Origin: a virus
Lineage: Duplodnaviria > Heunggongvirae > Uroviricota > Caudoviricetes
Length of the DNA: 11,147 bases
Direction: 5' to 3' (one strand)
Virus record (IMG/VR): IMGVR_UViG_2585427748_000016
Span: 1 to 11,147 of that record
The position numbers and the translations under genes are program-made. The notes beneath the pieces were generated by a model that did no database searches, had not been told where the DNA came from, and worked only from the letters and a program-made list of their open reading frames with translations. Shown here piece by piece: positions 1,419 to 11,147 of this stretch (position 1 is its first letter; every line of letters starts with the position of its first letter).

Positions 1419-2489
1419 TTATTTGATTTCAATTTTGTCCCACTCCCTGCCTCTGTCATCACGATACTGTGATGCCATGGTGTCCGACTTATGCCCGAGA
1501 AGATGTTGAGCAAACTTATCGCTTATCTGCTTCTCATAGAGTCTTGCAGACAAACTGCGCAACTCGTGAAAGGTAGGCGGATCCCCTTCGAAGGAAAGAC
1601 CTGATGCTTTTCGTGCGCGCATAAAATACCTTGATACTGTGCCGGATGAAAGCGGTTCACGACGAGTAGATGCAATTATGGTTTCTCCGCCAAGAATCTT
1701 TTTGCATTTATCAAGTGTTTCCTTCATTGATATCCCGAGAGCATCAACATGCAATGTTGTTGGGATGGCAATTTTTACGCCTGTTTTGCTTTGCTCGACA
1801 TAAAGATATCCATCTACGATATCAGACCACTTCATTTCGCATAAATCACCAACTCGCTGCCCGGTAACAACAGCCAGTTCCATTGCAAGTCTAAGCCAAC
1901 ATGGTGATGATTCTGCTGCTTGATAAATTTTCAGGTATTCGTCAGCCGTAAGTCTTGATCTCCTTACCTCTGATTTTGCAGCGCGAGTGGCTGCGACCGG
2001 GTTTGTTGTTATATGGCCTTCAGCTATAGCCTCTCGGAATGCATCGCTCAGTGTTGATCTGATTAACTTGGCTGATGCCGCCTTGCCCTCGTCTATGTAT
2101 CCATTGAGCATTGCCGCAATTTCTTTTGTGGTGATGTCTTCAAGTGGAGCATCAGGCAGACCCCTCCTTATTGCTTTAATTTTGCTCATGTAATTTATGA
2201 GTGTCTTCTGCTTGATTCCTCTGCTGGCCAGGATTTTTTCGTAGCGATCAAGCCATGAATGTAACGTAACGGAATTATCACTGTTGATTCTCGCTGTCAG
2301 AGGCTTGTGTTTGTGTCCTGAAAATAACTCAATGTTGGCCTGTATAGCTTCAGTGATTGCGATTCGCCTGTCTCGGCCTAATCCAAACTCTTTACCCGTC
2401 CTTGGGTCCCTGTAGCAGTAATATCCATTGTTTCTTATATAAAGGTTAGGGGGTAAATCCCGGCGCTCATGACTTCGCCTTCTTCCCAT
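1419..2489 (-). CDS. int: Lambda-type integrase (tyrosine recombinase)
   Basis: 356-aa ORF next to attL, the same length as lambda Int. C-terminal catalytic motifs are present: HELRSLSARLY (His/Arg) and LLGHKSDTMASQY (His and the nucleophilic Tyr). Confidence 0.95.
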   Translation of the reverse strand: MGRRRSHERRDLPPNLYIRNNGYYCYRDPRTGKEFGLGRDRRIAITEAIQANIELFSGHKHKPLTARINSDNSVTLHSWLDRYEKILASRGIKQKTLINYMSKIKAIRRGLPDAPLEDITTKEIAAMLNGYIDEGKAASAKLIRSTLSDAFREAIAEGHITTNPVAATRAAKSEVRRSRLTADEYLKIYQAAESSPCWLRLAMELAVVTGQRVGDLCEMKWSDIVDGYLYVEQSKTGVKIAIPTTLHVDALGISMKETLDKCKKILGGETIIASTRREPLSSGTVSRYFMRARKASGLSFEGDPPTFHELRSLSARLYEKQISDKFAQHLLGHKSDTMASQYRDDRGREWDKIEIK

Positions 2490-2685
2490 TTCTGATCCTC
2501 TTCAAAAGGCTACCTGTTACTGGTCGATTTAAGTCAACCTTTACCGCTGATTCGTGGAACAGATACTCTCTTCCATCCTTAACCGGAGGAGGGAATATCC
2601 TGCACTCGCGTACCCATCGACGAACTGTTTCAAGGCTTCTTGGGCGTCGCTGGCGTGCGTTCCACTCCTGAAGTGTCAAGTACAT
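2467..2685 (-). CDS. xis: Excisionase
   Basis: 72-aa ORF whose 3' end overlaps the int start by 23 nt. Starts MYLTLQEWNARQRRPRSLETVRRW, a lambda Xis-like winged-helix N-terminus. Same length as lambda Xis. Confidence 0.9.
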   Translation of the reverse strand: MYLTLQEWNARQRRPRSLETVRRWVRECRIFPPPVKDGREYLFHESAVKVDLNRPVTGSLLKRIRNGKKAKS

Positions 2686-2724
2686 CGCAAAGTCTCCGCA
2701 ATTACACGCAAGAAAAAACCGCCA

Positions 2725-2892
2725 TCAGGCGGCTTGGTGTTCTTTCAGTTCTTCAATTCGAATATTGGTTACGTCTGCATGTGCTATCTGCGCCCACAGC
2801 ATCCAGTGGTCATAGCAGTCGCTGATGTTCTCGGCTTCGATAACTCTGTTGAATGGTTCTCCATTCCATTCACCTGTGACTCGGAAGTGCAT
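2725..2892 (-). CDS. Small exo-xis region protein (55 aa, lambda orf55-like by position and length)
   Basis: ATG at 2892 to TGA at 2725-2727 on the minus strand, translating MHFRVTGEWNGEPFNRVIEAENISDCYDHWMLWAQIAHADVTNIRIEELKEHQAA. It lies directly upstream of xis in the same orientation. It is absent from the supplied ORF track only because it is shorter than 60 aa. Confidence 0.55.
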   Translation of the reverse strand: MHFRVTGEWNGEPFNRVIEAENISDCYDHWMLWAQIAHADVTNIRIEELKEHQAA

Positions 2893-2905
2893 TTATCATC
2901 TCCAT

Positions 2906-2928
2906 AAAAAAAACTCGCCGTAGCGAGT
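2906..2928 (-). terminator. Putative intrinsic terminator downstream of the DUF1311-like gene
   Basis: Hairpin ACTCGC-CGTA-GCGAGT at 2913-2928 followed on the minus strand by a U-tract (plus-strand A-run 2906-2912). Confidence 0.5.
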
Positions 2929-3128
2929 TCAGATAAAAGAAATCCCCGCGAGTGCGAGGATAGTTATTCATTGTCGATATTTACATTTATTTCGAATATC
3001 TTTACTGGGTAATCGCCAAAGTCATATATTTTTTATTCTGTTTTATAAGCACTACCAAGTACTGCTTATTACAAATAAGAAAAGGCTGAAAAAAATATTT
3101 AAGACCACAACTGTGGCCCTAAATTTAC

Positions 3129-3827
3129 TTACGGCACTGCGTTAATCAGATTACAAATACCTCTTTTGGCAGGGTCTGAATTCAACTTCTGAAAATTGGC
3201 GTTCAACATAGCCGTGTGTAAGTGATTCTCAACCTCAAAGAATAGGTCGATTTTGCCCTCTTTGGCTGCCTGTTTCTTCCAAATATTCACTTGGTCATCA
3301 GCAATACGACTAGCGCAAGTGAACAAGAACGAACTGCCTCTAGGAATGGATGTCGTGCTGTAATACTCACCATCTACTTCTACATATTTAGCTCGGAATG
3401 ACTCTAAGGTTAGCTTATTGCCGTTCTTGACCGACTTAGCTTCTGCCTTACTTGTATCTTCCTGCTCTTTAGAATGTTTCTGCGCCGACGTGGGTATGTC
3501 ATTGGCCGCTGTTACGCTGACTGAACTCCCCAAACCTTTGAGGCCATTAATTTGGATAAGATAAGCCAGCTCCAGAGCCTTATTATCAGTGAGTTTTCCA
3601 CGCATATTTACCCACTGACGTTGAACCATTTTTAGGGTGTCTGCGTTCTCTGGGTTTCCTTTGAGGGCACTAGAATAGGCAGAGCTAAGCTGTTCGTCTA
3701 ATTTTGACAGACGTTCGTTATCGCAGATTTTATGTTCGATTGCTGTCGAAGCCTTTTGGCAGTCAAAGCTGGCTGCAAATGCACCCGGCGATGCCACTAA
3801 CAATGATGCCAGTAGGATATTTTTCAT
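3129..3827 (-). CDS. Secreted protein with N-terminal DUF1311/LprI-like domain and uncharacterised C-terminal domain (putative moron)
   Basis: 232-aa ORF from the ATG at 3827, preceded by a GGAG Shine-Dalgarno. Sec-type signal peptide MKNILLASLLVASPGAFA. The mature N-terminus FDCQKASTAIEHKICDNERLSKLDEQLSSAYSS...VQRQWVNMRG resembles the DUF1311 (LprI N-terminal) motif. The track ORF 3129-3854 starts at an upstream in-frame Met with no good RBS. Confidence 0.6.
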   Translation of the reverse strand: MKNILLASLLVASPGAFAASFDCQKASTAIEHKICDNERLSKLDEQLSSAYSSALKGNPENADTLKMVQRQWVNMRGKLTDNKALELAYLIQINGLKGLGSSVSVTAANDIPTSAQKHSKEQEDTSKAEAKSVKNGNKLTLESFRAKYVEVDGEYYSTTSIPRGSSFLFTCASRIADDQVNIWKKQAAKEGKIDLFFEVENHLHTAMLNANFQKLNSDPAKRGICNLINAVP

Positions 3828-3855
3828 ATTCACTCCATAAATACAAAAGCGCATT

Positions 3856-3890
3856 ACTATAGCACTTAACCGATCGCTTATCTCGCCCGT
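3856..3890 (-). promoter_or_regulatory. Candidate sigma70 promoter with extended -10 (TGcTATAGT) for the DUF1311-like gene
   Basis: Minus-strand sequence GTGCTATAGTAATG lies about 30 nt upstream of the ATG, in the 103-bp gap between the ea22 stop and the gene start. The -35 element is weak. Confidence 0.3.
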
Positions 3891-3957
3891 TCGTCATTCT
3901 TATCTAACCAGAACATGCGACTGCCACAGCACATGTCGAGGATTGCTGCATGTCCAG

Positions 3958-4506
3958 TCACTGGTTGCCTCCTTTGCGAAGCTGGGCGGCTAACTCATCA
4001 CATATGTGCGTCAAAGAGCAAAGTTTGATTGATGGATGTTCGCGCATCATCTCCACCCCCTGCGCCCGTACTTCAGCCAGGAAAGCATCGGTGGCTGGCA
4101 TATTTCCTGTTGCCTTCATGGCCTCCAAAATAACCAGAACACCATCTCTCCCAATCTCCTCGCAGATAACCTCGGTGCTGTCGCCAACAACATCGCAGAA
4201 TTCCTGAACTGCTTTACGAGCCAGCTCATTCTCCGCCGCCAGCGCCGAAAACTTCTCGTGTGCCAACTTAACAGCTGCATCAGCCTGCTTAATTGACTCA
4301 GTCGCTTTCTGGTGGTCTTCGGCCAGCCCTGCTAAATCAGCCTCCAGTTCGGCTAGGCGTTCATTTAATGCATCTCGTTCATCCAGTAGAGCCAGCACAA
4401 CCTGAGGTGTGACTTTCATACGAAATGCCAGCAATTTTTGAGGTGTTGCTACTGTTTCAATTGCTACTGCCGCCTCACGCAGTGCCTGAGAGTTAATTTC
4501 GCTCAC
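3958..4506 (-). CDS. ea22: Ea22-like exo-xis region protein (coiled-coil)
   Basis: 182-aa ORF with a GTG start overlapping the upstream stop (GTGA). The N-terminus MSEINSQALREAA and the LALLDERD segment match lambda Ea22 as recalled; the C-terminal two thirds appear divergent (mosaic). Confidence 0.65.
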   Translation of the reverse strand: MSEINSQALREAAVAIETVATPQKLLAFRMKVTPQVVLALLDERDALNERLAELEADLAGLAEDHQKATESIKQADAAVKLAHEKFSALAAENELARKAVQEFCDVVGDSTEVICEEIGRDGVLVILEAMKATGNMPATDAFLAEVRAQGVEMMREHPSIKLCSLTHICDELAAQLRKGGNQ

Positions 4507-4724
4507 TTCGAACCTCTCTGTTTACTGATAAGTTCCAGATCCTCCTGGCAACTTGCACAAGTCCGACAACCCTGAACGGCCAAGCGTCTTCGTTCATCTA
4601 TCGGATCGCCACACTCACAACAATGAGTGGCAGATATAGCCTGGTGGTTCAGGCGGCGCATTTTTATTGCTGTGTTGCGCTGTAATTCTTCAATTTCTGA
4701 TGCTGAATCAATGATGTCTGCCAT
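4503..4724 (-). CDS. TraR/DksA-family C4 zinc-finger protein (lambda orf73-like)
   Basis: 73-aa ORF with CCECG-(17)-CRTCASC, a CxxC...CxxC zinc finger typical of phage TraR-like proteins. Its position between orf63 and ea22 matches the exo-xis region. Confidence 0.7.
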   Translation of the reverse strand: MADIIDSASEIEELQRNTAIKMRRLNHQAISATHCCECGDPIDERRRLAVQGCRTCASCQEDLELISKQRGSK

Positions 4725-4773
4725 CTTTCATTAATCCCTGAATTGTTGGTTAATACGCTTGAGGGTGAATGCG

Positions 4774-4800
4774 AATAATAAAAAAGGAGCCTGTAGCTCC
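4774..4800 (-). terminator. Weak candidate intrinsic terminator within the exo-xis operon
   Basis: 5-bp GC-rich stem GGAGC/GCTCC (4786-4800) followed on the minus strand by UUUUUUAUUAUU. Confidence 0.25.
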
Positions 4801-4822
4801 CTGATGATTTTGCTTTTCATGT

Positions 4823-5038
4823 TCACCGTTCCTTAAAGACGCCGTTCAACAAGCCGATCGCCAGCCTTAAATGAGTCGGTGTGAATCCCATCAGCGTTAC
4901 CGTTTCGCGGTGCTTCTTTAGTACGCTACGGCAAATGTCATCGACGTTTTTATCCGGAAACTGCTGTCTGGCTTTTTTGATTTCAGAATTAGCCTGACGG
5001 GCAATGCTGCGAAGGGCGTTTTCTTGCTGAGGTGTCAT
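4823..5038 (-). CDS. Hypothetical exo-xis region protein (71 aa from the Met at 5038; the track ORF extends to 5104)
   Basis: ORF in the same orientation, tightly packed between orf63 and the orf73-like gene. The start codon is ambiguous (ATG at 5104 or 5038). No recognisable motif. Confidence 0.45.
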   Translation of the reverse strand: MTPQQENALRSIARQANSEIKKARQQFPDKNVDDICRSVLKKHRETVTLMGFTPTHLRLAIGLLNGVFKER

Positions 5039-5114
5039 TGAACAAGCCCCATGTCGGCAAGCATAAGCACACAGAATATGAAGCCCGCTGCCAGAAAAAT
5101 GCATTCAGTGGTTG

Positions 5115-5306
5115 TCATACCTGGTCTCTCTCATCTGCTTCTGCTTTCGCCACCATCATTTCCAGCTTTTGTGAAAGGGATGCGGCTAACGTATGAAATT
5201 CTTCGTCTGTTTCTACTGGTATTGGCACAAACCTGACTCCAATTTGAGCGAGGCTATGTGCCATCTCGATACTCGTTCTTAACTCAACGGGAGATGCTTT
5301 GTGCAT
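5115..5306 (-). CDS. Exo-xis region protein, lambda orf63-like
   Basis: 63-aa [40 protein letters not shown]..., matching lambda orf63 in length and position. Confidence 0.6.
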
Positions 5307-5422
5307 ACAGCTCCCCGTTTATTATTTATCTCCTCAGCCAGCCGCTGTGCTTTCAGGGGATTTCTGATAACAGAAAGGCCGGGAAGCCCAATATTTGATA
5401 CCAGACCTCTCCGCGCCGCCAT
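5279..5422 (-). CDS. Small ORF (47 aa) overlapping the orf63 start by 28 nt; possible truncated or chimeric orf60a-like gene at the deletion junction
   Basis: ATG at 5422 with an AGGAGA Shine-Dalgarno 9 nt upstream. A 28-nt overlap with the orf63 start is the same arrangement as recalled for lambda orf60a/orf63. The N-terminal part may derive from junction sequence. Confidence 0.3.
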
Positions 5423-5454
5423 GATTGTCTTTCTCCTGATGCAGGAGGCCAATA

Positions 5455-5649
5455 ATGCTTAGCCCATCTCAATCCCTTCAATACCTGAAAGGAAGCATAG
5501 AGCGGGCTTCAATGTGCACAGAGTGGATTCTATCTAGGTTTAGCGCATACAGAAGATTGCCGGTAAAGGGCATGCCAAGCAAGTCGATGCTGCATATGCA
5601 AAAGAATGCGCGCTGGAAGGTATGGCGAAAACACAGGTTATGTGGCTGA
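5455..5649 (+). CDS. Hypothetical 64-aa ORF at the junction, with a strong Shine-Dalgarno
   Basis: AGGAGG followed by 7 nt and ATG at 5455. No recognisable motif. Overlaps the ybcO-like remnant in another frame, so it may be fortuitous. Confidence 0.25.
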
Positions 5650-5672
5650 AAGAGGGGATTATTAAGGCGTGA
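5544..5672 (+). pseudogene. 3' remnant of a ybcO-like (DUF1364 nuclease family) nin-region gene, lacking a start
   Basis: The frame ending at TGA 5670-5672 translates ...[34 protein letters not shown], resembling the C-terminus of DLP12 YbcO as recalled. An in-frame stop at 5541-5543 leaves no N-terminal region. Its stop overlaps the rusA GTG start. Confidence 0.4.
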
Positions 5673-6031
5673 ATACCTACAGCATCACATTACCCTGGCC
5701 TCCGAGCAATAATCGCTATTACCGCCATAATCGCGGGCGCACGCACGTCAGCGCAGAGGGGCAGGCATACCGCGATAACGTCGCCAGAATCATTAAAAAC
5801 GCAATGCTGGATATCGGCCTGGCTATCCCTGTGAAAATCCGCATTGAGTGCCACATGCCGGATCGCCGTCGCCGTGACCTGGATAATCTGCAAAAAGCCG
5901 CTTTTGACGCACTCACTAAAGCAGGTTTCTGGCTGGATGATGCTCAGGTCGTTGATTACCGCGTTGTGAAGATGCCTGTTACCAAAGGTGGGAGGCTGGA
6001 ACTGACCATCACCGAAATGGGGAATGAATGA
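5669..6031 (+). CDS. rusA: Holliday junction resolvase RusA
   Basis: 120-aa ORF with a GTG start, [37 protein letters not shown]..., matching the RusA family (DLP12-type) in length and sequence as recalled. Confidence 0.85.
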
Positions 6032-6168
6032 TGTTTGAGTTTTATGTGGCAGAACGTCTTCGCCACCGCTGGATGCGCCTGCGCTTATATCGTTTTCCTG
6101 GTTCTGTTTTGACCGATTACCGAATACTGAAGAATTACGCCAAAACCCAGACAGGAGCAGGAGTATGA
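6028..6168 (+). CDS. ylcG: Small nin-region protein (46 aa), YlcG-like
   Basis: ATGATG start overlapping the rusA stop (ATGA), translating [46 protein letters not shown]. Its position between rusA and the Q-like gene is as in DLP12. Confidence 0.5.
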
Positions 6169-6253
6169 AGTCAGAGATAACAATCAACTAATACTGTTTT
6201 GTTGATTTTTGCTTGTAATTGGCGTTCTGGTCTGATTTTTGTGGAGTAAGTTG

Positions 6254-6637
6254 ATGCGTGATATTCAGATGGTTCTTGAGCGTTGGGGAGCGTGGGCGGC
6301 TAATAATCATGAAGATGTGACCTGGTCGTCCATTGCCGCCGGTTTTAAGGGATTAATTACTTCAAAAGTAAAATCTCGCCCGCAATGTTGTGACGATGAC
6401 GCGATGATTATTTGCGGGTGCATGGCCCGTCTGAAAAAGAACAACAGCGATTTGCACGATTTATTAGTAGATTATTATGTAGTCGGTATGACATTCATGT
6501 CACTGGCAGGTAAGCATTGCTGCTCTGATGGTTATATCGGGAAAAGGTTACAGAAGGCTGAGGGCATAATTGAAGGGATGTTAATGGCATTAGATATCCG
6601 GTTAGAGATGGATATCGTTGTTAATAACTCTAATTAA
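6254..6637 (+). CDS. quuD: Late-gene antiterminator, Q-like (QuuD type)
   Basis: 127 aa from [18 protein letters not shown]..., with GGAG 7 nt upstream. Cysteine-rich ([18 protein letters not shown]) small Q-family protein located between rusA/ylcG and the lysis genes. The track ORF begins at an upstream in-frame Met at 6239. Confidence 0.8.
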
Positions 6638-6670
6638 TATGCCAGTTGTTTACTAAAAATTATTAAAAAT

Positions 6671-6688
6671 GGGGCGTTGCAACGCCCC
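6671..6688 (-). terminator. Perfect palindrome GGGGCGTTGCAACGCCCC, probable terminator for the convergent porin gene
   Basis: 7-bp GC-rich stem with a 4-nt loop, followed on the minus strand by AUUUUUAAUAAUUUUU. Confidence 0.45.
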
Positions 6689-6776
6689 CAAAAATAAAGG
6701 GTAATATATAACAGAAGGTTTATATAGTTAGAAGCAAGGTTGTGCTCCTAAAGGAAGTGGCTTGAGGGAGCCACTT

Positions 6777-6816
6777 ATATGTTGGGGAGGCAAAGCCTCC
6801 CGCAACATATCTTTTT
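6777..6816 (+). terminator. Long hairpin plus T-run between the Q-like gene and the porin 3' end (bidirectional terminator region)
   Basis: ATATGTTGGGGAGGC-AAA-GCCTCCC(G)CAACATAT: a stem of about 15 bp with one bulge, followed by CTTTTT at 6811-6816. It lies 10 nt beyond the porin stop, so it may serve both strands. Confidence 0.5.
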
Positions 6817-6826
6817 CGTAATCAGA

Positions 6827-7924
6827 TTAGAACTGGTAAACCAGACCTACAGCAACGATGTCATCAGTGCTTACACTGAGTGCTTTAGTGAAGTCATTTT
6901 TGTCAAGCAGGTTGATTTTGTAATCAACGAAAGTAGACATATTTTTGTTGAAGTAATAGGTTGCACCTACATCAACATATTTGACTAAGTCCTGATCGCC
7001 CCATACTCCAAGATCCTTACCTTTAGATTGCAGGTAAGCAACGGACGGACGCAGACCGAAATCGAACTGATATTGTGCAACAGCTTCGAAGTTTTGGGCT
7101 TTATTAGCAACGAAGTGATCAGCAAATACAGTCATATTCTGGGTTTCAGAATAGGTAGTGGCCAGGTAAATGTTGTTAGCGTCATATTTCAGACCTGCGG
7201 CCCAAACTTCTGCATTTTTACCGGAAGCAAATACTTCAGGAAGAACTTTCCCTGCATTAACTTGAGTGTCGGTACGATCAGATTTCGCATAAGTTGCACC
7301 GATACCGAATCCTTCGTATTCATAGGTAGCAGAGAAACCGAAGCCATCACCGTTACCTTCAGTGTAGTTATCGAAATCGCTACGATCGTTTTTGCCTTGG
7401 TACTGAGCAGCAAAGTTCAGACCATCAACCAGACCAAAGAAGTCGTTGTTACGATAGGTTGCAACACCAGTTGCACGTTGAGTCATGAACACGTCGGTTT
7501 GAGTCCAAGTGTCACCACCGAATTCTGGCAGGACGTCAGTCCACGCGCCGATGTCGTATGCTACACCGTAGTTACGGCCGTAATCGATGGAGCCGTAGTC
7601 ACCGAATTTCAGGCCTGCAAATGCAAGACGGGTTTTGTCTTTGGAGGAGCCTTGAGATTCAGCGCGGTTGCCTTTGAATTCATATTCCCACTGACCGAAA
7701 CCAGTCAGTTGATCGTTGATTTGGGTTTCACCTTTGAAGCCAAGACGGGCATAAGTAGTATCACCATCATCTGCATCATTAGAGGAGAAGTAGTGCTTAG
7801 CATTAACTTTCCCGTACAGATCCAGCTTGTTACTGTCTTTATTATAAATTTCAGCTGCCTGAGCAGACATCGCCATCAGTACTGATGCAGCTACAGCAGA
7901 AATTGCCACTGTTAATTTTTTCAT
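6827..7924 (-). CDS. nmpC: Outer-membrane general porin, OmpC/OmpF/PhoE/NmpC family (prophage moron)
   Basis: 365 aa from [23 protein letters not shown], a signal peptide with AQA cleavage site. Mature protein starts [16 protein letters not shown], with a porin-typical C-terminal VGLVYQF ending in Phe. Uninterrupted in this window. The track ORF starts at an upstream Met at 7984. Confidence 0.85.
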
Positions 7925-8351
7925 CGTGAGCCCTTTTTTTGAACTATTATTAAAAAATGATGTCACTGCGCGATAAATATTCATCTAATCAATGTGATTA
8001 TTTCAAGATGTAAGTTTTGGTTTCTCGTTTGATTTGTGAAGTAGATCTCTATTTTTATCTGAACTTTTTTCTATCGAATCCTATTCATGGCTCTTGGCTG
8101 AATAAAAATAAATCTGTTAGCCAATTTATATTAACGGCTGTTATTTATAAGTGCTCTATAATTTGAAGGTTCAATTTAAACCGGCTAAAAATAACACTGG
8201 AAATTATTTGTTGGTTATTTGTTGAGATTTTCTTATGTATTTGTAGTGGTGTTTTCAATACTCGGTAGCATTCTCGCAAATATCATTTAGTGGTTTACGT
8301 ACGTAAAAAATTGGTTATGCTGTTAAGAGTGGTTACTTCGTCACACAGCTT

Positions 8352-8380
8352 AAACCCGCCGTCGAGCGGGTTTTTCCATT
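8352..8380 (+). terminator. Intrinsic terminator-like hairpin upstream of the holin (tR'-like; the late promoter is probably just upstream)
   Basis: AAACCCGC-CGTCGA-GCGGGTTT stem-loop followed by TTCCATTTTTT, about 120 nt upstream of the holin start. Confidence 0.45.
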
Positions 8381-8496
8381 TTTTGAGTCTCGATATTAGC
8401 TGATAACCCAATACCTGAGTTATTCACTGACTCCGAGTCTGTTACGTTTCGTAGTATTCCCTCAATTTACACCCGCTTTGTCTGCGAGGTGGGGTT

Positions 8497-8712
8497 ATGA
8501 AATCCATGGATAAGTTAACAACGGGTGTCGCCTATGGCACCTCAGCAGGTAGTGCCGGGTACTGGTTTTTACAGCTGCTAGATAAAGTCACGCCCTCACA
8601 GTGGGCGGCAATTGGAGTGCTGGGTAGCCTGGTATTTGGCCTGCTGACGTACCTGACAAACCTTTATTTCAAGATTAAAGAAGATAAGCGCAAGGCTGCG
8701 AGAGGTGGATAA
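8497..8712 (+). CDS. S: Class II holin (phage 21 S-type pinholin) with dual-start motif
   Basis: 71 aa, [26 protein letters not shown]..., with Met1 and Met4 (holin/antiholin dual start), two TM segments and a charged C-terminus. GAGGTGG RBS. Confidence 0.85.
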
Positions 8713-9209
8713 TGCCTCCATCATTACGAAAAGCTGTTGCTGCTGCTATTGGTGGCGGGGCTATTGCTATAGCATCTGTATTAATCACTGGCCCAAGTGG
8801 TAACGATGGTCTGGAAGGTGTGAGACATAATCCTTACAAAGACATAGTTGGTGTATGGACTGTATGTCACGGGCATACAGGAAAAGACATCATTCCCGGT
8901 AAAACGTATACCGAAGCAGAGTGCAAAGCCCTCCTGAATAAAGACCTTGCCACTGTCGCCAGACAAATTAACCCGTACATCAAAGTCGATATACCGGAAA
9001 CAACGCGCGGCGCTCTTTACTCGTTCGTCTACAACGTGGGTGCTGGCAATTTCAGAACATCGACGCTTCTTCGCAAAATAAACCAGGGTGATATTAAAGG
9101 CGCATGTGATCAGCTACGTCGCTGGACATATGCTGGCGGTAAGCAATGGAAAGGTCTCATGACTCGTCGTGAGATTGAGCGTGAAATCTGTTTGTGGGGT
9201 CAGCAATGA
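8712..9209 (+). CDS. R: SAR endolysin (phage 21 R-type lysozyme)
   Basis: 165 aa. The start overlaps the holin stop (TAATG). Gly/Ala-rich N-terminal signal-anchor-release segment [20 protein letters not shown], followed by a T4-lysozyme-like catalytic region. Confidence 0.85.
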
Positions 9210-9667
9210 ACAGAGTAACCGCGATTATCTCCGCTCTGGTTATCTGCATCATCGTCGGCCTGTCATGGGCTGTTAATCATTACCGTGATAACGCCATTAC
9301 CTACAAAGCCCAGCGCGACAAAAATGCCAGAGAACTGAAGCTGGCGAACGCGGCAATTACTGACATGCAGATGCGTCAGCGTGATGTTGCTGCGCTCGAT
9401 GCAAAATACACGAAGGAGTTAGCTGATGCGAAAGCTGAAAATGATGCTCTGCGTGATGATGTTGCCGCTGGTCGTCGTCGGTTGCACATCAAAGCAGTCT
9501 GTCAGTCAGTGCGTGAAGCCACCACCGCCTCCGGCGTGGATAATGCAGCCTCCCCCCGACTGGCAGACACCGCTGAACGGGATTATTTCACCCTCAGAGA
9601 GAGGCTGATTACTATGCAAAAACAACTGGAAGGAACCCAGAAGTATATTAATGAGCAGTGCAGATAG
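9206..9667 (+). CDS. Rz: Rz i-spanin
   Basis: 153 aa from [23 protein letters not shown] (N-terminal TM), then coiled-coil. ATGA overlap with the endolysin stop. Near-identical to lambda Rz as recalled. Confidence 0.85.
9426..9608 (+). CDS. Rz1: Rz1 o-spanin lipoprotein, embedded in the +1 frame of Rz
   Basis: 60 aa, [20 protein letters not shown] with lipobox VVGC, then a proline-rich mature part [15 protein letters not shown]. Fully contained within Rz. Confidence 0.85.
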
Positions 9668-9698
9668 AGCTGCCCATATCTATGGGCAACTCATGCAA

Positions 9699-9992
9699 TT
9701 ATTGTGAGCAATACACACGCGCTTCCAGCGGAGTATAAATGCCTAAAGTAATAAAACCGAGAAATCCATTTACGAATGTTTGCTGGGTTTCTGTTTTAAC
9801 AACATTTTCTGCGCCGCCACAAATTTTGGCTGCATCAACAGTTTTCTCCTGTCCAATTCCCGAAACGAAGAAATGATGGGTGATGGTTTCCTTTGGTGTT
9901 ACTGCTGTCGGTTTGTTTCCAACAGTAAACGTCTGTTGAGCACATCCTGTAATAAGCATTGCCAGAGCGGCAGAAAACAACATTTTTTTCAT
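9699..9992 (-). CDS. bor: Bor lipoprotein (serum-resistance, Iss-like)
   Basis: 97 aa from MKKMLFSAALAMLITGC, with lipobox LITGC. The track ORF 9699-10040 starts at an upstream in-frame Met. Confidence 0.85.
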   Translation of the reverse strand: MKKMLFSAALAMLITGCAQQTFTVGNKPTAVTPKETITHHFFVSGIGQEKTVDAAKICGGAENVVKTETQQTFVNGFLGFITLGIYTPLEARVYCSQ

Positions 9993-10108
9993 CTTATTAT
10001 CCTGCATTGTTAAAAACGGCAGAATCCTATGTGACAACAATTAAACGATAGTTAAATGGATTGATGAAAATTAAAACTATATAGGTGGATGCTCAGCCTA
10101 TTGGAGGA

Positions 10109-10117
10109 GGGGGGGGG
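10109..10117. repeat. Homopolymeric G9 tract in the intergenic region upstream of bor
   Basis: GGAGGAGGGGGGGGGCACTC; nine consecutive G at 10109-10117. Confidence 0.9.
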
Positions 10118-10354
10118 CACTCAGAATCCTGTGGAATGAAATAAACCGCTCTTTCTGTCCATTACCCTTTTAGCTGCGCTGTATCGTCGCCGTATTCCCG
10201 CATTAACCATGACCGTAGCCCGACGGGGAATTCCTTCTGCGTGAGTGTGCGGGAATAATCAAAAACGATGCACACCGGGTTTTACTGTGCTGACAGACGC
10301 AGGGTTACCCTCATAGTCGCTTTTCCGGTGCGATGGTGGAAGAAACCGGGATGT

Positions 10355-10549
10355 TTATTCATCATCACTCTGGATTGATGTATATGCTCTCTTTTCTGAC
10401 GTTAGTCTCCGACGGCAGGCTTCAATGACCCAGGCTGAGAAATTCCCGGACCCTTTTTGCTCAAGAGCGATGTTAATTTGTTCAATCATTTGGTTAGGAA
10501 AGCGGATGTTGCGGGTTGTTGTTCTGCGGGTTCTGTTCTTCGTTGACAT
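10355..10549 (-). CDS. Small basic protein, YlcI-like (DUF3950 family), adjacent to cos
   Basis: 64-aa ORF MSTKNRTRRTTTRNIRFPNQMIEQINIALEQKGSGNFSAWVIEACRRRL..., with an Arg-rich N-terminus and a ribbon-helix-helix-like segment. In DLP12 the position just before the nu1 homolog is occupied by ylcI, as recalled. Confidence 0.5.
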   Translation of the reverse strand: MSTKNRTRRTTTRNIRFPNQMIEQINIALEQKGSGNFSAWVIEACRRRLTSEKRAYTSIQSDDE

Positions 10550-10699
10550 GAGGTTGTCCCGTATTCAGTGTCGCTGATTTGTATTGTCTGAAGTTGTTTT
10601 TACGTTAAGTTGATGCAGATCAATTAATATGATACCTGCGTCATAATTGATTATTTGACGTGGTTTGATGGCCTCCACGCACGTTGTGATATGTAGATG

Positions 10700-10937
10700 A
10701 TAATCATTATCGCTTTACGGGTCCTTTCCGGTGATCCGACAGGTTACGGGGCGGCGACCTCGCGGGTTTTCGCTATTTATGAAAATTTTCCGGTTTAAGG
10801 CATTTCCGTTCTTCTTCGTCGTAACTTAATGTTTTTATTTAAAATACCCCCTGAAAAGAAAGGAAACGACAGGTGCTGAAAACGAGCTTTTGGGCCTCTG
10901 TCGTTTCCTTTCTCTGTTTTTGGCCGTGGAATGAACA
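10700..10937 (+). other. cos region: cosQ side, cosN with 12-nt cohesive end GGGCGGCGACCT (10749-10760), cosB
   Basis: The sequence ...GGTGATCCGACAGGTTACG|GGGCGGCGACCTCGCGGGTTTTCGCTATTTATGAAAATTTTCCGG... matches the lambda right-end/left-end junction as recalled. Confidence 0.9.
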
Positions 10938-11147
10938 ATGGAAGTCAACAAAAAGCAGCTGGCTGACATTTTCGGTGCGAGTATCCGTACCATTCAGAAC
11001 TGGCAGGAACAGGGAATGCCCGTTCTGCGAGGCGGTGGCAAGGGTAATGAGGTGCTTTATGATTCTGCCGCCGTCATAAAATGGTATGCCGAAAGGGATG
11101 CTGAAATTGAGAACGAAAAGCTGCGCCGGGAAGTTGAAGAACTGCGG
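10938..11147 (+). CDS. nu1: Terminase small subunit Nu1 (5' part; truncated by the window end)
   Basis: ATG at 10938, translating MEVNKKQLADIFGASIRTIQNWQEQGMPVLRGGGKGNEVLYDSAAVIKWYAERDAEIENEKLRREVEELR, matching the lambda Nu1 N-terminus. It has no stop within the window, so it is absent from the ORF track. Confidence 0.9.
   Translation, partial: MEVNKKQLADIFGASIRTIQNWQEQGMPVLRGGGKGNEVLYDSAAVIKWYAERDAEIENEKLRREVEELR

What the first reader, a model, noticed from the sequence alone, without database searches (positions are those of the whole stretch)
2906..3890. Secreted DUF1311/LprI-like protein inserted as a moron in the exo-xis region
Between ea22 and orf55, where lambda carries ea8.5, there is a 232-aa gene with a Sec signal peptide. 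Its N-terminal domain resembles DUF1311, the N-terminal domain of the mycobacterial lysozyme inhibitor LprI; the C-terminal domain of about 100 aa is unrecognisable. The gene has its own candidate extended -10 promoter in the 103-bp gap upstream and a hairpin/U-tract terminator downstream, which is the signature of an autonomously expressed lysogenic-conversion gene. A periplasmic, prophage-encoded protein of this type could act in envelope protection, lysozyme or toxin inhibition, or superinfection exclusion. The function is unknown.
Basis: partly seen in the sequence, partly recalled or inferred. Interest (0 to 1): 0.7.

Follow-up and report, generated by a model that had tools for sequence, protein, structure and literature searches.

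The report
Phage-borne secreted DUF1311 two-domain protein cassette
A defective lambda-like prophage carries an ~810-bp horizontally acquired cassette (promoter-like element, gene, terminator) that encodes an exported two-domain protein of an uncharacterised phage family; the database name "lysozyme inhibitor" is not supported, and its function is untested.

Summary
Window 3129-3827 (-) is a real 232-aa gene in the slot where lambda has ea8.5. The protein has a Sec-type signal peptide, a DUF1311/PF07007 N-domain, a disordered linker and a C-domain with no Pfam or PDB match.

It is already catalogued as PHROG 4675 (function unknown) and as PGAP "lysozyme inhibitor LprI family protein". It occurs in 124 of 5426 complete E. 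coli genomes.

Gene, TGnTATAGT extended -10, RBS and terminator hairpin form one 808-bp block shared with SSU5-type phage-plasmids. Its insertion truncated a methyltransferase gene. So it is an accessory, moron-like cassette, not a lineage core gene. Promoter activity is untested, but this prophage has lost pL, so only a local promoter could drive the gene here.

There is no MliC domain, which is the part credited with lysozyme inhibition in LprI. Full-length homologues also sit in early regions of virulent T4-like Aeromonas phages, so lysogenic conversion cannot be the family's defining role.

Best guess (about 0.3): a disulfide-bonded periplasmic binder that neutralises incoming peptidoglycan hydrolases, such as phage tail lysozymes or T6SS effectors. 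Overall this is a new member of a known kind, of moderate interest.

The parts
3129..3827 (-). CDS of 232 aa (stop codon 3129-3131). PHROG 4675; PGAP name 'lysozyme inhibitor LprI family protein'.
   Evidence: dN/dS is 0.05-0.28 in both domains.
3774..3827 (-). Signal peptide, aa 1-18 (MKNILLASLLVASPGAFA|AS). Type I cleavage motif, no lipobox.
   Evidence: heuristic; SignalP was not run. The mature end ASFDC is invariant.
3528..3773 (-). N-domain, aa 19-100. DUF1311/PF07007 helical bundle with conserved C23 and C35.
3417..3527 (-). Linker, aa 101-137. Disordered, variable in length and sequence.
   Evidence: pLDDT below 50; dN/dS about 0.7-1.1.
3132..3416 (-). C-domain, aa 138-232. Short helix, beta-hairpin and three helices, with conserved C171 and C225. 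No Pfam or PDB match.
3833..3836 (-). Shine-Dalgarno GGAG, 5 nt upstream of the ATG.
   Evidence: Identical in all 35 copies compared.
3856..3864 (-). Candidate extended -10, TGcTATAGT. The -35 at 17-nt spacing is GAGATA (3 of 6).
   Evidence: TG and TATAGT are invariant while n varies (C, A or T). Activity untested.
3088..3124 (-). Intrinsic terminator: 12-bp stem, GUUG loop, then AUUUUUUU.
   Evidence: The hairpin is kept in all copies through wobble or compensatory changes.
3089..3896 (-). Cassette block, 83% identical to Salmonella phage-plasmid SSU5 (promoter-like element + gene + terminator).
3878..3984 (-). 5' remnant (about 33 codons, QRRQPVTGHAAILDMCCGSRMFWLDKNDERAR*) of a SAM-dependent methyltransferase gene cut off by the cassette. 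3873-3896 overlaps the SSU5-type sequence as microhomology.
2911..2961 (-). Two tandem hairpin/T-tract terminators just upstream of orf55. They belong to the shared lambdoid backbone, not to the cassette.
   Evidence: The segment is shared with Stx phages.

Best explanation
The locus is a horizontally acquired accessory cassette in the variable ea22-to-xis slot of a lambda-like prophage.

The product is exported by Sec and the signal peptide is cleaved after AFA18. It is then a soluble periplasmic protein of about 23.6 kDa. It has a DUF1311 helical N-domain and a second, uncatalogued alpha/beta C-domain, each holding a conserved cysteine pair (probably one disulfide each), joined by a roughly 37-residue disordered linker.

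Transcription probably starts at a conserved extended -10 element about 29 nt upstream of the ATG and stops at the conserved hairpin directly after the stop codon. That would keep lysogen transcription out of orf55-xis-int. In an intact phage, N-antiterminated pL transcripts would also read through the gene early in lytic growth.

Inferred function: the protein binds and neutralises a peptidoglycan hydrolase that enters the periplasm from outside. Candidates are the tail-associated lysozyme of a superinfecting phage (as T4 Spackle does) or a T6SS muramidase/transglycosylase effector (as DUF1311-type immunity proteins do). The result would be protection of the infected or lysogenic cell.

Shown here: the gene, its domain architecture, purifying selection, the cassette boundaries, and the distribution.
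Inferred: export, disulfides, promoter use, and the molecular target.
For: Gene and architecture:
- ORF, RBS and agreement with PGAP.
- PF07007 above the gathering cut-off.
- AF2 model with both domains at pLDDT about 74-94 and a disordered linker.
- Four cysteines conserved down to about 25% identity.
- dN/dS 0.05-0.28 in the domains against about 1 in the linker.

Cassette:
- An 808-bp block shared with SSU5.
- 11 distinct upstream variants among 35 copies all keep GGTTAAGTGnTATAGT and a near-identical UTR/RBS, while the CDS is only 78-83% identical. The hairpin is conserved.
- The upstream junction truncates a methyltransferase gene that is intact elsewhere.
- The cassette is found with more than one ea22 allele.
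- This prophage lacks pL, N and cI because of a roughly 10-kb deletion, so only a local promoter could drive the gene here.

Function:
- DUF1311/LprI-domain proteins with signal peptides are cognate or orphan immunity partners of periplasm-acting cell-wall effectors: Etsi4/Etse4 by a co-expression rescue experiment (PMC12981562), Salmonella SPI-19 (PMC8867033) and Pantoea (PMC9796082) by prediction.
- ScwA links the domain to the lytic transglycosylase MltD (PMC7933661).
- Full-length homologues lie in the early 41-61-56 region of virulent Aeromonas T4-like phages. T4 keeps spackle in that region, and Spackle is a periplasmic inhibitor of gp5 lysozyme (PMC7677548).
- The Yersinia homologue sits in a mobile island with Lamassu and PDC-S71 defence genes.
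Against: - There is no experiment on any member of PHROG 4675.
- The promoter motif alone is not above chance.
- Part of the 5' conservation may reflect more recent shared ancestry. Synonymous divergence rises from about 0.1 in the signal peptide to over 1 in the C-domain.
- The target has no pairwise similarity to the validated immunity protein Etsi4, which itself scores below the Pfam cut-off.
- No effector or toxin gene is adjacent in any context examined.
- The PF07007 match is partial (70 of 106 positions), and the two downstream cysteines typical of the family are absent.
- Klebsiella phage Marfa matches both queries: an Sp-annotated gene (weak, partial hit) and a 77%-coverage homologue. 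The two are therefore not simple alternatives.
Confidence: 0.4

Rival explanations
1. The protein modulates host cell-wall enzymes, as ScwA does. It would alter the level or activity of endogenous lytic transglycosylases or endopeptidases for the phage's benefit, for example in lysis timing, lysis inhibition, or holding leaky SAR endolysin in check, rather than blocking incoming enzymes.
For: ScwA, a periplasmic, disulfide-bonded DUF1311 protein, controls MltD levels, and its overproduction causes lysis (PMC7933661). This prophage encodes an S21-like pinholin and a SAR-type endolysin (8497-9209). The family's presence in virulent phages fits a role inside the infected cell.
Against: The cassette moves independently of the lysis genes and occurs in elements with very different backbones: lambdoid phage, SSU5 phage-plasmid, T4-like phage and a Yersinia island. 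In ScwA the LprI domain is C-terminal in a different architecture. No linkage to holin or endolysin genes was seen, apart from a 2.3-kb distance to t in RB49, whose protein shares only the N-domain.
Confidence: 0.15
2. It has an envelope-level exclusion or protection function unrelated to peptidoglycan hydrolases. The C-domain would be the working part, for example masking a receptor or blocking DNA entry as the Cor/Llp or Sie-type proteins do, and DUF1311 would be a scaffold.
For: The C-domain is the more strongly constrained part (dN/dS 0.05-0.08). It also occurs without DUF1311, as a lipoprotein (LTGC lipobox) in other integrative elements next to small membrane proteins (P0060 and P0062). 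The Yersinia homologue lies in a defence island.
Against: No similarity to any known exclusion protein was found (no PADLOC, Pfam or PDB hit). The only functional information available concerns the DUF1311 part.
Confidence: 0.2
3. It is a true inhibitor of animal lysozyme, as the PGAP name implies. It would be a lysogenic-conversion virulence factor protecting the lysogen from host c-type lysozyme.
For: Pfam and PGAP naming, the predicted periplasmic location, and occurrence in gut and clinical Enterobacteriaceae.
Against: There is no MliC (PF09864) hit, and the C-domain is predicted to be helical. PMC7933661 attributes LprI's lysozyme resistance to its MliC domain, which this protein lacks. 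The scwA deletion mutant was no more lysozyme-sensitive (PMC7933661). Homologues occur in virulent phages of Aeromonas, where protection from animal lysozyme makes little sense.
Confidence: 0.07
4. It is not autonomously expressed. The gene would simply be one more pL-operon early gene, and the conserved 5' region would reflect translation-initiation constraints or recent common ancestry rather than a promoter.
For: The motif is not enriched. Synonymous divergence is lowest at the 5' end of the gene. In SSU5 the element lies in a 38-nt gap directly after the upstream gene's stop codon, and in Yersinia and T4-like phages the homologue is inside an operon.
Against: TG and TATAGT are invariant while the degenerate base varies (C, A or T) across two unrelated backbones. 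The cassette carries its own terminator. The gene is intact (99.9% identical to ev099) in this prophage remnant, which has lost pL.
Confidence: 0.3

Closest known systems
PHROG 4675 / PGAP 'lysozyme inhibitor LprI family protein' (for example WP_000789830, ev099 gp35, SSU5_101, Aeromonas phage 31 ORF027c)
   Same: Full-length membership: E 3.5e-94 over 231 of 232 residues. 99.9% nucleotide identity to ev099 and to many E. coli prophages.
   Different: Nothing differs. This is the family itself, and it has no assigned or tested function.
DUF1311 / PF07007 (structure 3gi7, P. putida PP0307; the N-terminal domain of M. tuberculosis LprI)
   Different: Only profile positions 1-70 of 106 match, and the two downstream conserved cysteines are missing. 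It carries an extra C-domain and has no MliC domain like that of LprI.
DUF1311-type T6SS immunity proteins (Etsi4 of EHEC; Salmonella SPI-19 SED_RS06230; Pantoea orphan immunity genes)
   Same: Signal peptide plus an LprI-type domain, a periplasmic site of action, and occurrence in the same Enterobacteriaceae. Immunity genes can also be orphan and mobile.
   Different: Those proteins are about 146-149 aa with a single domain and lie next to an effector in T6SS clusters. The target has two domains, is phage-borne, has no adjacent effector, and shows no pairwise similarity to Etsi4.
T4 Spackle (Sp, gp61.3)
   Same: An early-expressed, Sec-exported, small periplasmic phage protein. Family members in Aeromonas T4-like phages lie in the same 41-61-56 early region.
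Salmonella ScwA
   Same: A soluble periplasmic protein with an LprI domain and DsbA-dependent disulfides, linked to peptidoglycan hydrolase control (PMC7933661).
   Different: In ScwA the domain is C-terminal in a 275-aa chromosomal protein, and the rest of the protein is unrelated.
Phage morons (for example lambda bor and lom, HK97-type morons)
   Same: A discrete accessory gene with a promoter-like element and its own terminator, present in a minority of related phages and shared with unrelated elements.
   Different: GC content (44%) is close to that of its neighbours (45-51%). Promoter activity has not been shown. The insertion came with a deletion, because it replaced a methyltransferase gene.

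Membership tests
DUF1311 / Pfam PF07007 (LprI N-terminal domain) | HMM score at or above the Pfam gathering cut-off | tested here: met
   25.2 bits against a cut-off of 22, E 2.2e-5, aa 23-78, profile positions 1-70 of 106. The more distant family members P0055 and P0061 fall below the cut-off.
DUF1311 / Pfam PF07007 (LprI N-terminal domain) | Helical-bundle fold like 3gi7 | tested here: met
DUF1311 / Pfam PF07007 (LprI N-terminal domain) | Four conserved cysteines within the domain (a family property described in PMC7933661) | tested here: not met
   Only C23 and C35 lie in the N-domain. The position after Q-x-W-x-x-x-R is not Cys. The other two conserved Cys (C171, C225) are in the C-domain.
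LprI-type lysozyme inhibitor (M. tuberculosis LprI) | MliC/PliC beta-barrel domain (PF09864), to which PMC7933661 attributes lysozyme resistance | tested here: not met
   No PF09864 hit at E up to 1. The C-domain is predicted as a beta-hairpin plus three helices.
LprI-type lysozyme inhibitor (M. tuberculosis LprI) | Lipoprotein anchoring (lipobox) | tested here: not met
   No L-[AS]-[GA]-C motif. The cleavage motif is AFA|AS, type I.
LprI-type lysozyme inhibitor (M. tuberculosis LprI) | Inhibition of lysozyme activity | not testable with these tools
   This needs an enzyme assay.
T6SS immunity protein (DUF1311 type) | Encoded next to its cognate effector, or in an orphan-immunity array of a T6SS cluster | tested here: not met
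   The neighbours are phage exo-xis genes, SSU5 early genes, or defence-island genes. No effector is present.
T6SS immunity protein (DUF1311 type) | Sequence relationship to a validated immunity protein (Etsi4) | tested here: not met
   BLASTP gave no significant alignment.
T6SS immunity protein (DUF1311 type) | Neutralises a periplasmic effector | not testable with these tools
   This needs co-expression or competition assays.
Phage moron | Present in some members of a phage group and absent from close relatives, between genes of the backbone | tested here: met
   124 of 5426 genomes have the cassette, while 2130 have the adjacent lambdoid segment. Among lambdoid phage records only ev099 has it. 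Other occupants of the slot were seen.
Phage moron | Own terminator | tested here: met
   A conserved hairpin plus T-run immediately after the stop codon.
Phage moron | Own promoter active in the lysogen | tested here: inconclusive
   A conserved TGnTATAGT at a suitable distance. The motif is not above chance, and there are no expression data.
Phage moron | Nucleotide composition deviating from the surrounding genome | tested here: not met
   GC is 44.2%, against 45-51% in neighbouring genes.
PHROG 4675 | Full-length HMM match | tested here: met
   E 3.5e-94, aa 1-231 on profile positions 1-234 of 235.

The most novel reading that the evidence does not exclude
PHROG 4675 could be a previously unrecognised class of phage-encoded periplasmic anti-hydrolase proteins, functional analogues of T4 Spackle. 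Virulent T4-like phages, temperate lambdoids, phage-plasmids and defence islands would use it to block the tail lysozymes of superinfecting phages and/or T6SS muramidase effectors. Its new C-terminal domain would set target specificity. On this reading a prophage would carry mobile 'orphan immunity' that protects its host.
Probability: 0.25. Interest if true: 0.65.

Novelty: new member of a known kind. Interest (0 to 1): 0.35.

Why it matters
If the inferred role holds, one small cassette that moves between lambdoid prophages, about 110-kb phage-plasmids, T4-like phages and defence islands would give envelope-level protection against competing phages or bacteria. That would add a periplasmic layer to prophage-encoded defence and give the widespread DUF1311 domain a function in phages.

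There is also an immediate practical point. The automatic name "lysozyme inhibitor LprI family protein", carried by more than 100 complete E. coli genomes and many plasmids, transfers a function credited to a domain this protein does not have. It should be read as "DUF1311 domain protein, function unknown".

As it stands, the locus is an ordinary, well-delimited, uncharacterised phage accessory gene.

Tried and rejected
1. Sequence search of the PDB with the family profile and with the N-domain returned only designed repeat proteins at E above 0.06.
2. Foldseek against the PDB returned nothing at E below 2. The afdb50 library was unavailable.
3. The first AF2 run, on a shallow alignment of 70-81% identical homologues, gave pLDDT 46 and was discarded. 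The second run, with divergent members added, gave usable domains.
4. I tested whether the C-domain is a second, diverged DUF1311 copy. hhalign of the N-domain against the C-domain found no similarity.
5. I tested whether neighbouring genes are conserved across contexts (SSU5_100 against the 183-aa ORF in L045, and the two 69-aa ORFs). They are unrelated.
6. PADLOC gave no hit for the target or its homologues.
7. Rfam (gathering threshold) on the whole window and a repeat scan of 2690-4000 found nothing.
8. I tested whether Spackle and the family have strictly complementary distributions. They do not: Klebsiella phage Marfa matches both.
9. I first read 3866-3896 as a remnant of the 3' end of an SSU5_100-like gene. 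I now read the reading frame as the 5' remnant of a methyltransferase gene, with 3873-3896 as junction microhomology.
10. Literature searches for the accession, the PHROG number and the PGAP name found no paper. The LprI paper itself is not in the held library.
Full report
**1. What is in the sequence**

The window starts with E. coli ybhC (1-1284, -), the gene next to attB-lambda. A lambda-like prophage follows:
- int 1419-2489 (-)
- xis 2467-2685 (-)
- orf55 2725-2892 (-)
- the target 3129-3827 (-)
- an ea22-like gene 3958-4506 (-)
- orf73, a TraR/DksA homologue, 4503-4724 (-)
- an orf61-like ORF
- orf63 (DUF1382) 5115-5306 (-)

In lambda the slot between orf55 and ea22 holds ea8.5.

The real start is the ATG at 3827, which gives 232 aa. 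GGAG lies 5 nt upstream of it, and PGAP annotates the same 699-nt CDS elsewhere. The in-frame ATG at 3854 (241 aa) has no RBS and reads CAG in the SSU5 copy. The true gap to the ea22 stop is 130 bp.

**2. The protein**

Residues 1-18 (MKNILLASLLVASPGAFA) look like a type I signal peptide with an AFA|AS cleavage motif and no lipobox. SignalP was not available. The GenBank record of a full-length homologue notes a predicted signal peptide.

PF07007 (LprI/DUF1311) matches aa 23-78 at 25.2 bits, above the cut-off of 22. Only profile positions 1-70 of 106 are covered.

An AF2 model built on a deliberately diversified alignment (A5) shows three parts:
- a helical N-domain, aa about 20-100, pLDDT 74-90
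- a disordered linker, aa 101-136
- a C-domain, aa about 138-228, pLDDT 82-94, made of a short helix, a beta-hairpin and three helices

Four cysteines (C23 and C35; C171 and C225) are conserved down to about 25% identity. That fits two disulfides formed in the periplasm.

Both domains are under purifying selection (dN/dS 0.05-0.28). The linker evolves neutrally.

**3. It is a catalogued but uncharacterised family**

The protein is a full-length member of PHROG 4675, function unknown (E 3.5e-94). PGAP names it "lysozyme inhibitor LprI family protein".

Distribution of the gene:
- 124 of 5426 complete E. coli genomes
- the functional lambda-like phage ev099, at 99.9% identity
- Salmonella phage-plasmid SSU5, at 83% nucleotide identity
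- 126 plasmids carry a full-length homologue, and those listed are mostly about 110 kb, from Enterobacter, E. coli and Citrobacter
- close protein homologues also come from Salmonella and Klebsiella contigs of about 110 kb

A single-sequence search with the C-domain against 1.84 billion representatives gave only 10 hits. One group is a Yersinia enterocolitica protein (P0061). Another is a set of lipoprotein variants that have the C-domain but no DUF1311 (P0060, P0062).

A tblastn search of phage genomes then showed 150 further records, all large virulent T4-like phages of Aeromonas, Escherichia (Krischvirus) and Klebsiella.
- Aeromonas phage 31 ORF027c aligns over its full length with the family profile (hhalign probability 98.8%, E 6.7e-17, 215 columns). 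All four cysteines are kept, and it belongs to PHROG 4675.
- The RB49 protein shares only the N-domain and linker.

**4. The cassette**

Against lambda, nucleotide homology stops at 2967 and resumes at 4462. The replaced segment therefore covers the target and most of ea22.

Against SSU5, homology is one block, 3089-3896. It holds the ORF, 40 bp downstream and 69 bp upstream. I compared 35 copies: the window, SSU5 and 33 IMG/VR loci. They gave 11 distinct upstream variants.
- All variants keep GGTTAAGTGnTATAGT, with n being C, A or T.
- The UTR and RBS are almost invariant, while the coding sequence is only 78-83% identical between the lambdoid and phage-plasmid forms.
- The hairpin after the stop codon is kept in every copy through wobble or compensatory changes. 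Its dG is -14.9 kcal/mol here and -19.2 in SSU5.

Upstream, window 3873-3984 matches the 5' end of a gene that follows ea22 in other lambdoids. PGAP calls that gene a SAM-dependent methyltransferase. Only about 33 codons remain in the window, ending at a TAA at 3878-3880. Positions 3873-3896 resemble both partners, which suggests junction microhomology. So the cassette entered a lambdoid by illegitimate recombination and destroyed a gene.

The cassette now occurs with more than one ea22 allele. 124 genomes have it, but only 68 cover at least 80% of the 2700-4600 query, which includes this ea22 allele. Other prophages hold different genes in the region: ea8.5, ASCH-domain and DUF4752 proteins, or the methyltransferase. 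This agrees with the literature, which describes the block downstream of ea22 as variable (PMC8614690).

That condition is not met.

**5. Is it autonomously expressed?**

This cannot be decided here.

Points in favour:
- The extended -10 (TGcTATAGT, 3856-3864) lies 29 nt upstream of the ATG.
- Its TG and hexamer are invariant in two unrelated backbones while the degenerate base varies.
- The cassette has its own terminator. By inference, that terminator would keep lysogen transcription out of orf55-xis-int.
- This prophage has lost about 10 kb, corresponding to ev099 31004-40977, with a 12-bp overlap at window 5374-5385. In ev099 that interval starts with orf60a, exo, bet, gam, kil and N and ends in the nin region, so it spans the pL and immunity region.
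- The gene is still 99.9% identical to the ev099 copy.

Points against:
- The motif is no more frequent than chance (6 found, 11 expected).
- The -35 is poor (3 of 6).
- Synonymous divergence is lowest at the 5' end of the gene. Part of the conservation may therefore be recent ancestry or a translation-initiation constraint.
- In Yersinia and T4-like phages the homologue sits inside operons.

**6. Function**

"Lysozyme inhibitor" is a transferred name. LprI also carries an MliC domain, and PMC7933661 attributes lysozyme resistance to that domain. The target has no MliC hit, and its second domain is predicted to be helical. The periplasmic DUF1311 protein ScwA gave no lysozyme protection; it controls the lytic transglycosylase MltD instead (PMC7933661).

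Small secreted proteins with an LprI-type domain are also cognate or orphan immunity partners of periplasm-acting cell-wall effectors:
- Etsi4/Etse4 in EHEC, shown by co-expression rescue (PMC12981562)
- Salmonella SPI-19, predicted (PMC8867033)
- Pantoea, predicted (PMC9796082)
- WHIX effector neighbourhoods, predicted (PMC12135965)

What these cases share is binding or control of peptidoglycan-cleaving enzymes in the periplasm.

The phage distribution adds two clues. First, the family is kept by strictly virulent phages in an early-gene region. In Aeromonas phage 31 it lies between primase 61/denV and gene 56. T4 keeps spackle between 41 and 61 in the same region, and Spackle is a periplasmic inhibitor of the gp5 tail lysozyme (PMC7677548, PMC7650644). 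Second, the Yersinia homologue lies in a mobile island with Lamassu and PDC-S71 defence genes and two serine recombinases.

My best mechanistic guess is a periplasmic binder that neutralises incoming peptidoglycan hydrolases, either phage tail lysozymes or T6SS effectors. I put this at roughly 0.3.

The caveats are real:
- The target shows no pairwise similarity to Etsi4, which itself is below the Pfam cut-off.
- No effector gene is adjacent in any context.
- Klebsiella phage Marfa matches both Sp and a family homologue.

The rivals are:
- ScwA-like control of host hydrolases
- an exclusion function driven by the C-domain and unrelated to peptidoglycan hydrolases
- a true lysozyme inhibitor, which I consider unlikely

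**7. Verdict**

The locus is a secreted DUF1311-type protein on a well-delimited, moron-like, horizontally mobile cassette. Its independent expression and any conversion phenotype are unproven. The LprI analogy is weak. The family is not specific to temperate phages.

It is a new, uncharacterised member of known kinds (phage accessory cassette, DUF1311 periplasmic protein). It is already present in databases under a misleading name. Interest is moderate (0.35). It would rise if the anti-hydrolase or superinfection-exclusion role were shown.

Noticed in passing
window 5374-5385 (junction); whole prophage 1419-11147: The prophage is a deletion remnant. Window up to 5385 matches ev099 up to 31003, and window from 5374 matches ev099 from 40978, so about 10 kb is missing with a 12-bp overlap at the junction. 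In ev099 that interval starts with orf60a, exo, bet, gam, kil and N and ends in the nin region, so it spans the pL and immunity region. The exo-xis genes are therefore cut off from pL.
   Followed up: partly
window 3878-3984 (-): This is the 5' fragment (about 33 codons) of a SAM-dependent methyltransferase gene whose start overlaps the ea22 stop. The gene is intact in Stx2c phage EH0430 and in E. coli NRZ14408. It was truncated when the cassette arrived.
   Followed up: yes
window 2911-2930 and 2942-2961 (-): Two tandem GC-rich hairpins with T-runs sit immediately upstream of the orf55 RBS (combined dG -24 kcal/mol, z -6.2). They lie in a segment conserved in lambda and in Stx phages such as 933W. 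The 2400-5400 region has 11 terminator-like sites against 2.9 expected.
   Followed up: partly
window 3129-3827 (-), along the gene: Synonymous divergence between the lambdoid and phage-plasmid alleles rises steeply from 5' to 3': about 0.07-0.24 in the signal peptide, 0.3-0.5 in the N-domain and 1.1-1.9 in the C-domain. This suggests intragenic recombination or a strong synonymous constraint at the 5' end.
   Followed up: partly
L005 486-6576 and 9236-11437 (Yersinia enterocolitica island): The Yersinia homologue is the last gene of a small operon, after a 101-aa lipoprotein and a 69-aa membrane protein. The island also carries Lamassu (LmuA, LmuB, LmuC), the candidate defence gene PDC-S71, an HTH repressor and two serine recombinases.
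   Followed up: partly
L005 8740-9160: About three direct repeats of roughly 120 bp, AT-rich, lie between the Yersinia homologue and the resolvase gene. They may be recombination or attachment sites.
   Followed up: no
L045 8745-8999 and L046 1423-1671: The lipoprotein variants that carry only the C-domain (P0062, P0060) are each followed by a small TM2-domain (PF05154) membrane protein. They lie in integrase- or AlpA-associated elements.
   Followed up: no
window 6827-7984 (-), 8497-9667 (+), 9699-10040 (-): The late region carries an OmpC/NmpC-like porin gene between Q and the lysis genes. It also has an S21-like pinholin, a SAR-type (R21-like) endolysin, Rz/Rz1 and a bor-like lipoprotein gene. 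These are further envelope-directed accessory genes in the same remnant.
   Followed up: no
window 4823-5104 (-): The mechanical ORF here is 93 aa, but PGAP annotates only a 216-nt orf61-like CDS at this position in related genomes. The start codon is ambiguous.
   Followed up: no
window 3958-4506 (-): The ea22-like gene is highly mosaic. Short segments of it match many different lambdoid, Stx and Salmonella phages at 92-100% identity. Only its first roughly 44 nt are shared with lambda ea22 at the nucleotide level.
   Followed up: partly
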